DNA from: Cyanidioschyzon merolae
Taxonomy: Eukaryota
Direction: 5' to 3' (one strand)
Length of the DNA stretch: 64,000 nucleotides
Assembly (NCBI GenBank): GCA_000091205.1
Contig: AP006488.2
Numbering within the stretch: the first letter of the stretch is position 1; the number at the start of each line of letters is the position of its first letter. A program made the translations under genes and the position numbers. Below are positions 58,671 to 63,220 of the stretch, piece after piece. The notes under the pieces were generated by a model. That model ran no database searches, had not been told where the DNA came from, and was given only the letters and a program-made list of their open reading frames with translations.

Positions 58671-58703
58671 TGGTTGGTTGGTTGGTTGGTTGGTTGGTTG
58701 GTG
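58671..58703. repeat. (GGTT)8 tetranucleotide microsatellite
   Basis: Direct reading. Confidence 0.9.
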
Positions 58704-59544
58704 TTGTTTGGAACAGCCTCTTGCTCGACGGTGTGGGTGCTTAGGCCCTGGCAAGCCGCTTACCTTGACCGCGCGCATCGCTGAGAGGCGTCGCCCGGTC
58801 GCACGGGCACTTGAGCAAAATCTTTGAAGATATGAATCGATGATTCGACGAGATAATGACATGTCGACTGGTCTGATGGAGAGAGTTCCCCTACAGGCGG
58901 CTACTTACTGTGCCTGGAGGATTCGTCACGATGTTCATAGGCACTGGAGTGACGCTGCCACACACTGGTGCATAGCGAGGGGCGTGAAACGCCTCAGCGT
59001 GCGTGATAGGCACGGCGCATGGCCAGCATGCTTTCAGAAATGCTGCGCGAGCACTGTCGCTGCGAGCGAGAACTCTACTTGCCTTCACGCCTAGACTCGC
59101 CGTAGGCTGCGTCTTGGCGTGCTGTGTGTTTCACCTGGTCCAGGATATCGACGAACGCATGCGTGTTTATGCTGCCTATGCGCAATGATACCGGGACGCT
59201 TCCACAGAAGCACAACAGACTGCAGTTCGATGGTGGCTTTTCTATCTGCATGCACCAGCGCTGCGCAAAGCGGCGAACCTTTGTAGCTTCTAGAAAACAC
59301 GGCATGAGCGGGTGTGCGTTTACTGTGCTGCTCCATCAGCGGTTTCGAGCGTCTGCGCCAGCGACGGTCCGTTCGCTTTCCCAAGTTCTGGCGATCCAAC
59401 TGCCTCGCATGGGCCTTTCTGTCAAGTTTGGGCTCTTCCGCATTGCCTTTTCGCAATGGAAGCCGAACCTTGACGTGCCCGATATCTGTGCAACCGCAGT
59501 GCCGCTTTAGCACTGCGGTTGCACAGGCTCCCCCACGATGCCGT

Positions 59545-61315
59545 TCAGCATACAGCACCGCTGCGTTTCTTGTGCCGTTGGTGGCGGTCCACAGGCGAGC
59601 GACGCGGTTCCGCATCCTTGGTGCCCTCTTTCGCATGAATGGTTCCCCAATTTTGCATATGAATGAGGTGGCGGGCTCCCGGTAAATCGTGCGTTCGCCG
59701 CAGCTCTTCCGCGTGTTCCTGTAGCGACTTGTTGCCGTGCAGCATCTTACCGAGGGCGGTGGCGGTATGCTCGCTTTCCGGTTTCTTTGTCGACGCCGTA
59801 TCGTCCACAGCCAGGCCCTGTCCAAATAGGTTCAACAGTCCAGCCATGGCGACTAAATGATCATATGCGGCCCGAATATCCTGGACCAGCATATCTGCCC
59901 GATCGCGGGTAAAACCGACCCGCACCACCACCCGCAGCAGTTTCTGGTGCTGCAGGTTCGGTGCCAGCGTATACGCGGGAACGATCCATCCACGTTTGCG
60001 TAACTCTCCCGCTATGGCAAACTCATCAAAACCCAGTTTCGTGCGCTGGTCATCTGGGATCGCAAACGCAACCAAGGGCAGGCTTTCGTTGTCACTAAGC
60101 AGGCGGAAACGCCCATCCTCCGTGATACGTGTTGCAAAGTACGAAGCCAATTCTTTCAGGGTGTGCATTAGATTCTGGTATCCCCGACGGCCTAAGCGCA
60201 ACAGCAAATAGTATGACGCCACAATCTGAGCGGAACCGCGTGAAAAGTTCAAGGTGAATGAGGCTTGGTCCGCGCCCAGGTAATTGACGTGAAAGACGAG
60301 CTCCTCCGGCAGATACGCAGCGCTGCGAAAAATGAGCCATCCGATGCCACAGGGCGCGAGACCGTACTTGTGCCCCGAAACATTGATAGAACGCACGTTC
60401 TTCAAACGAAAGTCCCACCTGAGATTGGGGTAACAAAACGGGGCTATGAAGCCTCCTGATGCTGCGTCTACATGGATACCGATATCAAAACCCTTCTGCT
60501 CGTTCATCTGCGTCACGAGAGCGTCCAAAGTGGCAATGTCCTAGACTCGAATCGATTGTTTCGCAATGGTTAGTTTCATGTTCGGTTATTTCTGAGGAAA
60601 AGCCCCAGAAGTTTCGTCAACTTGCTTCAAATTGTCCGGTGTAGGTGGTACCTAGAATGCCGCAAATTCCGATGGTGTTCTCATCACAAAGCTCTATAGC
60701 TTTTTCCGGATTCATGACGTATACATCGTCGTGCAATGGTACGTAGCGTGGTTCCACATCAAAGTAAGCAGTCGCTTTCTCCCAGCAGACCTGCACTTCT
60801 GAACCCATCACCATGTTCGGGCGTGCGTAGTCCTTGCCGGCTGCCTTGCGAGCTGCTCGCCAACGCCACTTCATCGCGAGCACCGCCAGCATGATCGCCT
60901 CAGAGGAGCCTACAGTGCTGGTGCCAACAGCCTGCTGACCCTCCTCGAGAGGAGCATGAAAAAGGTTCGCTATGATATTGACGCAGCGGTTGTGGATCTC
61001 CACGGTTTGCGGATACTCGTCAAAGTCGATCCAGTTCACCGGAAGCATGCGATCACAGAGCTTGTGCGTCGTTTCATCAAAGCGCGTCGTCACAAAGGAT
61101 GCCAGGTTTAGTGCAGGGTTACCGTCTAGCTCCAGCTCCTGCGTAATGATACCTTCGGCAACAGCCGACGGCATCGGCTCGGCTCGCAACTGGTACTTGG
61201 GGAACTCCTCGAGCGCGAAGCTTGCAAAGCCGGTCTCGAAAGCCAGCGAGCTTGTGTCGATATGCTGAAAACGCTTCGCACCGCCTTTTTCAACGTTCGT
61301 CTTGTGTAGAGGCAT
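59545..61315 (-). CDS. GAD: Glutamate decarboxylase (PLP-dependent), two exons: 61315..60626 and 60540..59545 (minus strand), separated by an 85-nt intron
   Basis: Exon 1 (NHxPxEEGQQAVGTSTVGSSEAIMLA...MVMGSEVQVCWEKATAYFDVE...ICGILGTTYTGQFE) and exon 2 (DIATLDALVTQMNEQKGFDIGIHVDAASGGFIAPF...SINVSGHKYGLAPCGIGWLIFR...HVNYLGADQASFTLNFSRG) align collinearly with plant/bacterial GAD. This includes the PLP-lysine motif SGHKYG. ATG at 61315 verified. Confidence 0.9.
60541..60625 (-). other. Spliceosomal intron of GAD (85 nt) with apparent non-canonical GC-AG boundaries (donor GCAAGT, acceptor TCTAG)
   Basis: Alignment to the GAD family requires ...GQFE|DIATL.... The only in-frame junction places the donor at GC (60625-60624) and the acceptor AG at 60542-60541. 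No GT donor gives a frame-preserving join. Confidence 0.6.
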
Positions 61316-62914
61316 CAGCTAGCGCTTGATCAGGTCGTAGGCGAGTCACGCGTTCACGAGAACGCACCGATGTGAGCGTTTGCTGCAGCGGCTGGCAACG
61401 CTGGCCGTTCACAGCCGCTCGTTCTGGCGGAGCATCGTGGCTCCAGGGACTCTGGTGAGCATCTGCAGCGGGCGGCGTCACTGCACAGCATCCAGAGGTG
61501 TCCGATTTTTGCATGACACGGATGCTGCCCTGTGTAGACGAATGCCTGCGAGGAATGGAGGCGGCAGTCTCATTCGGGCGTACACACGCAAGATGGGGTC
61601 TGTTTGCACTGTGCTTAACACTGGCTTCTGTGGGCTCTTTCTGCAACTGCCTGCTTTTCCTCTGGCTTGTTCCATTTTTTAAATACACGGGTCTCTAAAG
61701 TCGTCCCGGGTCCGTTGCCAGGATTCAAAGGATGCTCGTGGTTACGTGAAATACCTGATTTCGCTGCTCGCCATCGTTGGCGATACATTTCCCGGTCAAA
61801 AGGTAGCTGCAATATGTGATTCACTTGCCGCTTTCGTATTATTTTTTTAAAGTCTCGGTGCGGCCCTCGCAGCGTTGACATCTGGCACTGGTCAGCGCTT
61901 GCCATGTGTGAGCGACACTGCTCGCTCCGAGCGCTGCTCCGCGGCGCCTCAAGGCTTGCATCATATTTCGGTACATGCCTTTGGCAGGTATGGAAGTCTC
62001 TACTCGCTGGCATCCTCCGGGTCCGCGCCCGATGATGTACGCGATAATCAGGAGCTTGTTCTAGACGATCGTCACGTCGAGAATTCTGTTCGCTGCATGT
62101 GAAAGCGCACGCTGTCCGATTCGACACGGGATGGTGCGGAACACGATGTTGTCCAAGATGGATCGAATACCGGGAGCGAAATCGAGCCCGAAAGACAAGC
62201 TGGGAAATCTCGATTCGTCTACGCTGCCTTCGTGCCAAGCAGTGATGCACTCCTCAGCGGAAGCGATCATTGTGAGCATTCAAGCCCGAGTCCATGGCAC
62301 TGTTCAATGGGGAAAGAGGTCACAGGAGCCTCTGGGAGCCTATCGCTTCTGCGGCATCACGCTGCTGTGAAATGCCTTTTCGTCGAATGCCAAAAAGAGA
62401 GGAGAACTTGCTTTTCGAAGATAATAGATACTTTCGCGCGAGGTGTTCAGAGAACTTTGCGGATGAGCTCATGAAGCAGCCGTCCACGGACGACGTCGAT
62501 GAGCGTTCCTCATCCATCCAGCGACGCGCATTGCCGTGCCCCCGAATCGGTTTGAAACAGAACGATCGAAGACGTAAAACAAGCGTAATTTAGGCATGTT
62601 ACATGTAAGAAAACCAGCAGCATGGAGTCTTGTTCCTAGGAATTGTTTCATAATAACGCGTATATTGCGAGCCCCAACTCCATGGTTCCGCGAATCGTCT
62701 TTATTCCGGTGACGTTACGAATTCCAGCGGCACAACGCACAAGGACACAGGCAAAAAAAAACACGACCAACACCCCCTAAAACTACGAACGCATCCTTAA
62801 GCCAGCATTAATGATGTTGGGATCTCGAACCTGCACATCTACAAGAAAAAATATCGAGTTGCAGGAACAGCAATCTCTGAATCAACGTAGGCATCTGAGC
62901 ACTGCTCCATGAGC

Positions 62915-63220
62915 GCGATGACGGTGATGCTGATAGTGATGCTAATGGTGATGGTGATAGTGGTGTTGATGCTTATGCTGATAGTGATAGTGAGTGTGAT
63001 GGTGATAGTGATAGTGATGGTGATGGTGATGCTGATAGTGATGCTTATGCTGATAGTGACAGTGATGGTGATAGTGAGTGTGATGGTGATAGTGATAGTG
63101 ATAGTGATGGTGATGGTGATGGTGATGGTGATAGTGATGCTAATGGTGATGGTGATGGTGATGCTGATAGTGATAGTGATGGTGATGGTGATGGTGATGG
63201 TGATGGTGATGGTGGTGATG
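62915..63220. repeat. Hexanucleotide minisatellite (GATGGT/GATAGT/GATGCT variants; about 50 units) with a higher-order repeat of roughly 120 bp
   Basis: Direct reading. ORFs 62839..63237(-) and 62909..63244(+) are repeat artefacts (ITITIT / VMVMVM). It lies immediately upstream of the K+ transporter gene. Confidence 0.9.

What the first reader, a model, noticed from the sequence alone, without database searches (positions are those of the whole stretch)
60541..60625. Rare GC-AG spliceosomal intron in an otherwise intron-poor locus (glutamate decarboxylase)
GAD is the only gene in the window that clearly needs an intron. The family alignment fixes the exon junction at ...TYTGQFE|DIATLDAL.... 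The only frame-preserving boundaries are a GC donor (GCAAGT, matching the canonical GC-donor consensus) and TCTAG|G as acceptor. Intron length is 85 nt. GC-AG introns are about 1% of introns in most eukaryotes, so finding one as the sole evident intron in 64 kb is notable. It also shows the organism is intron-poor but not intron-free, and that some unassigned stretches may hide spliced genes.
Basis: partly seen in the sequence, partly recalled or inferred. Interest (0 to 1): 0.5.

Follow-up and report, generated by a model that had tools for sequence, protein, structure and literature searches.

The report
Known GC-AG intron in algal GAD gene

Summary
Observation confirmed, interpretation supported, novelty nil.

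The window is Cyanidioschyzon merolae 10D, on a 536,163-bp chromosome record. Removing 60541-60625 (minus strand; GCAAGT...ACTAACC...TAG; 85 nt) joins two ORFs. The 561-aa product is letter-for-letter GenBank BAM79453.1 / XP_005535739.1, "glutamate decarboxylase". The reference annotation therefore already uses this junction.

Ten independently assembled, transcript-sized environmental contigs lack exactly these 85 nt. Identical alleles that still carry the intron occur in the same JGI accession range.

The intron sits at the same codon boundary in Cyanidiococcus yangmingshanensis and in a third, unnamed Cyanidiophyceae lineage. All three keep GCAAGTT, ACTAACC and YAG, while the interior has drifted to about 50% identity (flanking exons 71-82%).

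ACTAACC is the near-invariant C. merolae branch site. It occurs once in the 64 kb, inside this intron, so no other intron is likely here.

- Other GT/GC-AG pairs also keep the frame, though each deletes at least 11 aligned residues.
- The exon side of the donor (GAA|GC) is not the AG|GC typical of GC donors.

The only mildly interesting angle is a GC donor kept across lineages that lack U1 snRNP.

The parts
60626..61315 (-). GAD coding exon 1 (ATG at 61315-61313; 230 codons, ends ...TYTGQFE)
   Evidence: ORF list. Translation. Exact match of the spliced product to BAM79453.1.
60541..60625 (-). 85-nt phase-0 GC-AG spliceosomal intron
   Evidence: Sequence. Absent from 10 transcript-like contigs, with break points at 60625/60540. 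Identical in 19 intron-bearing contigs.
60620..60625 (-). 5' splice site GCAAGT (species consensus GUAAGU, with C at +2); exon side is GAA
   Evidence: Sequence. GCAAGTT is conserved in L001 and L010. Consensus from PMC8831791 and bioRxiv 10.64898/2026.05.17.725761.
60617..60619 (-). In-frame TGA, third codon of the intron; truncates the product of unspliced mRNA at 232 aa, upstream of the conserved SGHKYG lysine
   Evidence: ORF 60617..61315. Frame translation.
60568..60574 (-). Branch site ACTAACC (presumed branch A at 60570, 29 nt before the last intron base)
   Evidence: Only copy in the window. Conserved in L001 and L010. Matches the C. merolae consensus (PMC2483917; PMC10158995).
60546..60548 (-). 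GAG: first AG downstream of the branch site, not used (it would add 5 nt and shift the frame)
   Evidence: Transcript contigs use the next AG.
60541..60543 (-). 3' splice site TAG
59545..60540 (-). GAD coding exon 2 (331 codons plus TGA stop at 59547-59545). Contains the conserved SGHKYG motif; its lysine (K288, codon 60369-60367) is the PLP-binding residue expected for this enzyme family.

Best explanation
The segment 60541-60625 (minus strand) is a major-type (U2-dependent) spliceosomal intron with a GC-AG boundary. It interrupts, in phase 0, the single glutamate decarboxylase gene on the 536,163-bp chromosome record of Cyanidioschyzon merolae 10D.

Inferred mechanism, from the published C. 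merolae splicing literature: the organism has no U1 snRNP, so the donor GCAAGU is read by U6 and U5 snRNAs. U2 pairs with the branch site ACUAACC, and the branch A attacks the G at 60625. The first downstream pyrimidine-AG (UAG at 60543-60541) is the acceptor, and the preceding GAG is skipped.

Splicing joins ...TYTGQFE to DIATLDAL... and yields the 561-aa PLP-dependent enzyme. Unspliced mRNA stops at a TGA three codons into the intron and lacks the exon that carries the conserved SGHKYG lysine, so it cannot make active enzyme.

Shown here: the sequence signals, restoration of the ORF, identity to the annotated protein, contigs that lack exactly the 85 nt, and orthologous introns. Inferred: that the intronless contigs derive from RNA, the snRNA interactions, and the branch nucleotide.
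For: 1. Organism and annotation. Three window proteins are exact matches to C. merolae 10D entries on one 536,163-bp record. The spliced 561-aa product equals BAM79453.1 / XP_005535739.1 'glutamate decarboxylase'. That protein cannot be encoded without this join.

2. Signals. GCAAGT differs from the species consensus GUAAGU only at +2. ACTAACC is the species' near-invariant branch site, here 29 nt from the 3' end, inside the published 10-63 nt range. The acceptor is UAG (PMC10158995; PMC2483917; bioRxiv 10.64898/2026.05.17.725761).

3. Product. Ten contigs (L011-L020) from 4 JGI samples and 6 SRA runs are colinear with the window from as far as 61687 to as far as 58591, and they lack exactly 60541-60625. 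None reaches a neighbouring gene, and some carry Illumina adapter remnants at their ends.

4. Precursor. The same CDS haplotypes (identical sets of 8-10 SNPs) occur with the intron in contigs of samples in the same JGI accession range (L034-L038) and on a 16-kb contig (L033). This argues against an intronless allele.

5. Comparative. The same phase-0 position occurs in Cyanidiococcus yangmingshanensis (L001 4550-4643, 94 nt), whose NCBI gene model also uses GCAAGT...TAG, and in an unnamed Cyanidiophyceae contig (L010 3874-3967, 94 nt). GCAAGTT, ACTAACC and YAG are conserved. The interior is 49-58% identical against 71-82% for flanking exons. All three lengths are 1 mod 3.

6. The protein is a full-length PF00282 enzyme with hundreds of GAD homologues at 50-84% identity.
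Against: No read-level RNA-seq was available. The RNA origin of the intronless contigs is inferred from their extent, their adapters and the paired haplotypes, not from sample metadata.

The alignment break has a 1-nt ambiguity, because G at 60625 equals G at 60540. The junction could formally be written CA...GG instead of GC...AG. Convention and the conserved GCAAGT motif favour GC-AG.

The exon side of the donor (GAA) lacks the -1 G usually seen at GC donors.

The tract between branch site and acceptor is not pyrimidine-rich (44% pyrimidines).
Confidence: 0.95

Rival explanations
1. The intronless contigs represent a genomic intron-loss allele (or a retro-copy) in environmental strains. On this view the 10D gene is a disrupted or split gene whose annotated join is only a gene-model convenience.
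For: Sample types (DNA versus RNA) could not be verified. Spliced and unspliced contigs come from different samples in the same JGI accession range.
Against: Identical 8-10-SNP haplotypes exist both with and without the 85 nt. Every long, clearly genomic contig (16 kb to 127 kb, plus the reference) carries the intron. Every intronless contig is confined to the transcription unit. The deleted segment is bounded exactly by conserved GCAAGT and YAG with an ACTAACC inside, in three lineages. Published RNA-seq work found 26 of the 27 NCBI-annotated C. merolae introns correctly annotated (bioRxiv 10.64898/2026.05.17.725761).
Confidence: 0.02
2. A sequencing or assembly error created a spurious frameshift and there is no intron.
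For: None found.
Against: The 85-nt segment is base-for-base identical in the reference window and in 19 independent environmental contigs. A 1-2 nt error cannot account for 85 non-homologous nucleotides that sit exactly where homologues are contiguous.
Confidence: 0.005
3. A different junction is used, for example the GT at 60621 (GTTGAC) or the upstream GT at 60651 paired with a downstream AG.
For: 27 alternative GT/GC-AG pairs keep an open reading frame.
Against: All alternatives remove at least 11 residues that align without gaps to the homologues. None has a consensus donor. All ten spliced contigs show only the 60625/60541 junction.
Confidence: 0.01
4. This adds to the best explanation rather than excluding it. 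The sub-consensus GC donor is maintained by selection as a deliberately weak site, making GAD expression depend on regulated splicing (by light, nitrogen, heat or acid).
For: The C at +2 is retained in three diverged lineages while the intron interior has randomised. C. merolae splicing is inefficient and condition-dependent (PMC8831791; bioRxiv 10.64898/2026.05.17.725761). Both spliced and unspliced transcript-sized contigs were assembled. Intron retention gives an immediate stop codon.
Against: Three lineages are few, and shared ancestry alone explains a retained C if it is nearly neutral in a U1-less system. No splicing-efficiency figure for this intron was accessible. Low efficiency is general to all introns of these algae.
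Confidence: 0.15

Closest known systems
Annotated intron of the C. merolae 10D glutamate decarboxylase gene (protein BAM79453.1 / XP_005535739.1)
   Same: It is the same object. The product of splicing 60625/60541 is identical over all 561 residues.
   Different: Nothing. No paper found by the searches run here, or read here, singles out its GC donor.
The other C. merolae / Cyanidiophyceae introns (39 in Cm; consensus GUAAGU ... ACUAACC ... AG)
   Same: AAGU at +3 to +6, an exact ACUAACC, an AG acceptor, short length, branch-to-3'SS distance within 10-63 nt, and an early in-frame stop, as in 85% of these introns (bioRxiv 10.64898/2026.05.17.725761; PMC10158995).
   Different: C instead of U at +2. 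Phase 0, whereas phase 2 is the commonest. With only 51 nt between donor and branch site, it is too short to host the 82-1298-nt stable intronic RNAs reported for 23 of the 39 introns (bioRxiv 10.1101/2025.12.01.691491). No Rfam hit and no unusual fold.
GC-AG introns of U1-containing eukaryotes (about 1% of human introns; PMC3167603)
   Same: GC dinucleotide followed by the strong AAGT, an AG acceptor, and a U2-type branch site.
   Different: The exon ends in A, not the near-obligatory G at -1. The host has no U1 snRNA, so the usual rationale (extra U1 base pairs compensating for the +2 mismatch) cannot apply. That last point is an inference from the literature.
Orthologous GAD introns in Cyanidiococcus yangmingshanensis (L001 4550-4643) and an unnamed Cyanidiophyceae contig (L010 3874-3967)
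   Same: Same codon boundary (FE|DI), same phase, GCAAGTT donor, ACTAACC, YAG, length 1 mod 3, and a conserved downstream GH63 neighbour gene.
   Different: 94 nt instead of 85. The interior is about 50% identical. L010 has GAG|GC at the exon end.
CMQ163T intron with a 'GA' 5' dinucleotide (bioRxiv 10.64898/2026.05.17.725761)
   Same: Another non-GU donor in the same tiny intron set.
   Different: A different dinucleotide and a different gene. That one escaped earlier detection, whereas the GAD intron has been in the annotation.

Membership tests
U2-type spliceosomal intron, GC-AG subclass | 5' boundary GC followed by a consensus-like +3 to +6 (AAGT) | tested here: met
   GCAAGT at 60625-60620. 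Conserved as GCAAGTT in L001 and L010.
U2-type spliceosomal intron, GC-AG subclass | Branch-site motif of the host species at a suitable distance from the 3' end | tested here: met
   ACTAACC at 60574-60568, with the branch A 29 nt from the 3' end. It is the only copy in the window. Consensus and range are from PMC2483917 and PMC10158995.
U2-type spliceosomal intron, GC-AG subclass | 3' boundary YAG | tested here: met
   TAG at 60543-60541. The upstream GAG is skipped.
U2-type spliceosomal intron, GC-AG subclass | Precise removal from mature RNA | tested here: met
   Ten contigs lack exactly 60541-60625, and matching haplotypes with the intron also exist. The RNA origin of these contigs is inferred, not read from metadata.
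U2-type spliceosomal intron, GC-AG subclass | Removal restores a continuous, homologous reading frame | tested here: met
   561-aa protein, PF00282 at E 2.8e-81, gap-free alignment at the junction. Identical to BAM79453.1.
U2-type spliceosomal intron, GC-AG subclass | Lariat formation at the branch A and dependence on the spliceosome | not testable with these tools
   This needs lariat sequencing or a splicing assay.
U12-type (minor) intron | 5' /[AG]TATCCTT and branch TCCTTAAC | tested here: not met
   Neither motif is present.
Self-splicing group I / group II intron or other structured RNA | A conserved catalytic RNA structure detectable by a covariance model | tested here: not met
   No Rfam match up to E = 10 in 60400-60800. 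The 85 nt fold no better than shuffles, z = -0.06.
C. merolae introns that host stable RNAs (snoRNA / sieRNA) | [quoted passage not shown] | tested here: not met
   Only 51 nt separate donor and branch site. There is no snoRNA or other Rfam hit. The criterion is from bioRxiv 10.1101/2025.12.01.691491. Expression itself was not testable.
Ancestral intron position shared with other Archaeplastida | An intron at the homologous codon boundary in Galdieria or land-plant GAD | tested here: not met
   Galdieria sulphuraria and G. yellowstonensis GAD each have 8 introns, the nearest 18 codons upstream. The moss Ceratodon has 6, the nearest about 16 codons downstream. Only one gene per species was examined.

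The most novel reading that the evidence does not exclude
The GC donor of the GAD intron has been held fixed across the U1-less Cyanidioschyzon, Cyanidiococcus and third lineages because it matters functionally. One version is that it is a tuned weak 5' splice site that puts GABA-shunt enzyme production under splicing control in an acidophile. The other is that it is a natural reporter showing that U6/U5-only recognition of the 5' splice site is indifferent to position +2.
Probability: 0.15. Interest if true: 0.4.

Novelty: already known. Interest (0 to 1): 0.15.

Why it matters
For genome annotation it matters little. The intron and its exact junction are already in the C. merolae 10D reference, and the organism's tiny intron set has been catalogued repeatedly.

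The residual value is as a data point for splicing mechanism. C. merolae and its relatives have no U1 snRNP, yet keep a near-invariant GUAAGU donor. A naturally occurring +2 C that has been conserved across lineages, in a genetically tractable organism, is a convenient handle for asking what reads the 5' splice site when U1 is absent.

Tried and rejected
Literature and look-ups that gave nothing:
- Stark et al. 2015 (PNAS) could not be read by DOI or by a guessed PMC id.
- The supplementary intron tables of the 2026 preprint are not held. The donor dinucleotides of the other 38 introns and the measured efficiency of this intron could therefore not be tabulated.
- Literature searches for 'merolae' with 'glutamate decarboxylase' and 'intron', with 'CMF072C' (a locus tag guessed from memory), or with 'GCAAGU' found nothing.
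- Exact look-ups of P0122 and P0111 in the gene-position index found nothing. Cluster siblings P0124, P0162 and P0164 worked instead.
- The organism of L010 could not be named.

Ideas tested and rejected:
- A snoRNA or stable RNA hosted in the intron.
- A U12-type intron.
- An assembly error.
- An alternative junction.
- An ancestral intron position shared with Galdieria or moss.
- Depletion of ACTAACC outside introns: 1 observed against 2.9 expected, which is not significant.
- A scan for GYAAGT...ACTAACC...AG across the window. It found only this intron plus one nested artefact that starts at 61828, upstream of the ATG, and ends at the skipped GAG.

Full report
**What is at the coordinates**

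The gene lies on the minus strand. Read 5' to 3', the sequence is ...GGA CAA TTT GAA | GCAAGTTGACGAAACTTCTGGGGCTTTTCCTCAGAAATAACCGAACATGAAACTAACCATTGCGAAACAATCGATTCGAGTCTAG | GAC ATT GCC ACT....

- Upstream is an ORF that starts at the ATG at 61315 (exon 1, 690 nt).
- Downstream is an ORF in a different frame that runs to a TGA at 59547-59545 (exon 2, 996 nt).
- Without removal of the segment, the exon-1 frame stops at TGA 60619-60617.
- With removal, the CDS encodes 561 aa with a single full-length Pyridoxal_deC (PF00282) match, E 2.8e-81.
- The protein aligns without a gap across TYTGQFE|DIATLDAL to Cyanidiococcus, moss and Galdieria glutamate decarboxylases.
- The conserved SGHKYG motif is in exon 2 (K288, codon 60369-60367). 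Its lysine is the PLP-binding residue expected for this enzyme family.

**Which organism, and is it already annotated**

Exact-sequence look-ups identify three window proteins as Cyanidioschyzon merolae strain 10D entries on one 536,163-bp record. The spliced 561-aa product is identical to BAM79453.1 / XP_005535739.1, [quoted passage not shown]. That protein can only be derived by joining the two exons at this GC...AG pair. The intron is therefore part of the public reference annotation, and this settles the novelty question.

**Evidence that it is spliced**

A cluster sibling of the reference protein (P0124, five substitutions) is encoded as one uninterrupted 1686-nt ORF on ten independent contigs, from 4 JGI samples and 6 SRA-run assemblies.

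- The contigs align colinearly to the window at 98-100% identity.
- They start as far upstream as 61687 and end as far downstream as 58591.
- Every one breaks at 60625/60540, so exactly the 85 nt are missing.
- None reaches a neighbouring gene, and several begin with Illumina adapter remnants.
- The look-up was by protein sequence, so I checked that the same alleles also exist with the intron. Contigs L034-L038, from samples in the same JGI accession range, and the 16-kb contig L033 carry identical sets of 8-10 CDS SNPs plus an intron identical to the window's.
- All long genomic contigs (up to 127 kb) carry the intron.

The simplest reading is precursor and product RNA of one gene. This fits the published finding that splicing in this alga is only 42-50% efficient, so unspliced polyadenylated transcripts are abundant (PMC8831791; bioRxiv 10.64898/2026.05.17.725761). 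The RNA origin of these contigs is my inference, because sample metadata were not available.

The break has a 1-nt ambiguity (G at 60625 equals G at 60540). GC-AG is the conventional reading and the one that matches the motifs.

**Splicing signals**

The literature gives the C. merolae consensus as GUAAGU / ACUAACC / AG. Branch-to-acceptor distances are 10-63 nt and intron lengths 70-1309 nt (PMC10158995; PMC2483917; bioRxiv 10.64898/2026.05.17.725761).

- This intron has GCAAGU, which deviates only at +2.
- It has an exact ACUAACC at 60574-60568, with the presumed branch A at 60570, 29 nt from the 3' end.
- It ends in UAG.
- ACTAACC occurs once on both strands of the 64-kb window, and that copy is here. 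The dinucleotide-shuffle expectation is 2.9, so the count itself is unremarkable, but the location is not.
- The first AG after the branch site is a GAG at 60548-60546. It is skipped in favour of the UAG 5 nt further on, in line with the general YAG preference.
- There is no polypyrimidine tract (44% pyrimidines).
- U12-type motifs are absent.
- No Rfam family matches the intron or anything else in the window.
- The intron folds no better than shuffled sequence, z = -0.06.
- With only 51 nt between donor and branch site, it cannot hold one of the 82-1298-nt stable intronic RNAs reported for 23 of the 39 C. merolae introns (bioRxiv 10.1101/2025.12.01.691491).

**Comparative evidence**

The closest homologue is the Cyanidiococcus yangmingshanensis protein (84% identity).

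- Its locus L001 has a 94-nt intron at the same codon boundary and phase: GCAAGTTCAG...GGAACTAACC...GTTGTAG. Exact mapping shows that the NCBI gene model uses it.
It has a 94-nt intron at the same place: GAG|GCAAGTTTAT...GAAACTAACC...TCGCAG.
- The downstream glycoside-hydrolase-63 neighbour gene is conserved in all three.
- Pairwise identity is 49-58% inside the intron and 71-82% in the flanking 150 nt of exon. The conserved islands are GCAAGTT, AACTAACC and YAG.

The C at +2 is thus shared by three diverged lineages. All known members of this group lack U1 snRNA, and the preprint dates its deepest split at about 320 My (bioRxiv 10.64898/2026.05.17.725761). I could not place L010 within that group.

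The intron position is not shared outside it:
- Two Galdieria species have 8 introns in GAD, the nearest 18 codons upstream.
- A moss GAD has 6, the nearest about 16 codons downstream.

- Correct: coordinates, length, donor hexamer, acceptor, exon junction, gene identity, and that the organism is intron-poor but not intron-free.
- Overstated: "the only frame-preserving boundaries". 28 GT/GC-AG pairs within 90 nt keep an open frame, but the other 27 delete at least 11 aligned residues.
- Overstated: "matching the canonical GC-donor consensus". Only the intron side matches. The exon ends GAA rather than AG.
- Unlikely: that unassigned stretches of this window hide further spliced genes. The genome has 39 introns in about 16.5 Mb (genome size from my own knowledge), and the window holds no second ACTAACC.
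- Rarity: with about 39 introns and a roughly 1% GC-AG frequency elsewhere (PMC3167603), one GC donor in the genome is a small-number event, not a statistical anomaly.

**Mechanism**

- Shown: the signals, ORF restoration, exact excision in assembled transcripts, and conservation.
- Inferred from the C. merolae literature: the donor is recognised without U1, by U6 and U5 (PMC8831791; PMC10158995). U2 pairs with ACUAACC.
- Inferred: retention yields a 232-aa fragment without the exon that carries the conserved lysine. This fits the early-stop pattern described for 85% of these introns.

**Verdict**

The intron is real, correctly delimited and correctly interpreted. It is already annotated, in one of the best-catalogued intron sets of any eukaryote. 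The only angle with some specialist appeal is a conserved GC donor, without the usual exonic compensation, in a U1-less lineage. I found no paper that comments on it. The relevant supplementary tables almost certainly list it.

Noticed in passing
window 59486-59526: A perfect 17-bp stem with a 7-nt loop (CTGTGCAACCGCAGTGC / GCACTGCGGTTGCACAG) begins 19 nt past the GAD stop codon. It is the only perfect stem-loop of this size in the window that is not low-complexity sequence. Six SRA-derived transcript contigs end at 59527, at its edge. It is present, with one mismatch, in environmental C. merolae-like contigs, but absent downstream of the Cyanidiococcus and L010 orthologues. It could be a 3'-end or stability element, or merely a point where assemblies break.
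   Followed up: partly
window 62919-63214: A hexanucleotide microsatellite (TGATGG) of about 49 copies, 81% matches, lies in the region upstream of GAD. It generates long spurious ORFs (ITITIT..., VMVMVM..., SPSPSP...).
   Followed up: partly
window 58671-58702: A (TGGT)x8 microsatellite lies between GAD and the downstream GH63 gene. Several transcript-like contigs stop at or near it (58679-58706). These contigs extend 750-1080 nt beyond the stop codon, which implies a long 3' UTR or an overlapping transcript.
   Followed up: no
L039 1538-1592 (Galdieria sulphuraria GAD) versus L040 1586-1643 (G. yellowstonensis): The Galdieria sulphuraria GAD gene has its own GC-AG intron (GCAAGT) at a different, phase-1 position (after ...KSQEDLPQ). 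The orthologous intron in G. yellowstonensis starts GTACGT. This is an independent GT/GC difference in the same gene family.
   Followed up: no
JGI samples 3300053653-3300053662 (L011, L013, L014 spliced; L034-L037 unspliced): Within one JGI accession range of environmental samples, assemblies of the same GAD alleles came out either spliced or intron-retaining. This suggests that both RNA forms are abundant in natural populations, in line with the low splicing efficiency reported for cultures.
   Followed up: partly
window 59545-59850 (C-terminal ~100 codons of GAD): The C. merolae GAD (561 aa) is 48 aa longer than the annotated Cyanidiococcus orthologue (513 aa). It has a basic, low-conservation C-terminal tail (...RRSPVDRHQRHKKRSGAVC). 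I did not examine whether this corresponds to the calmodulin-binding tail of plant GADs.
   Followed up: no
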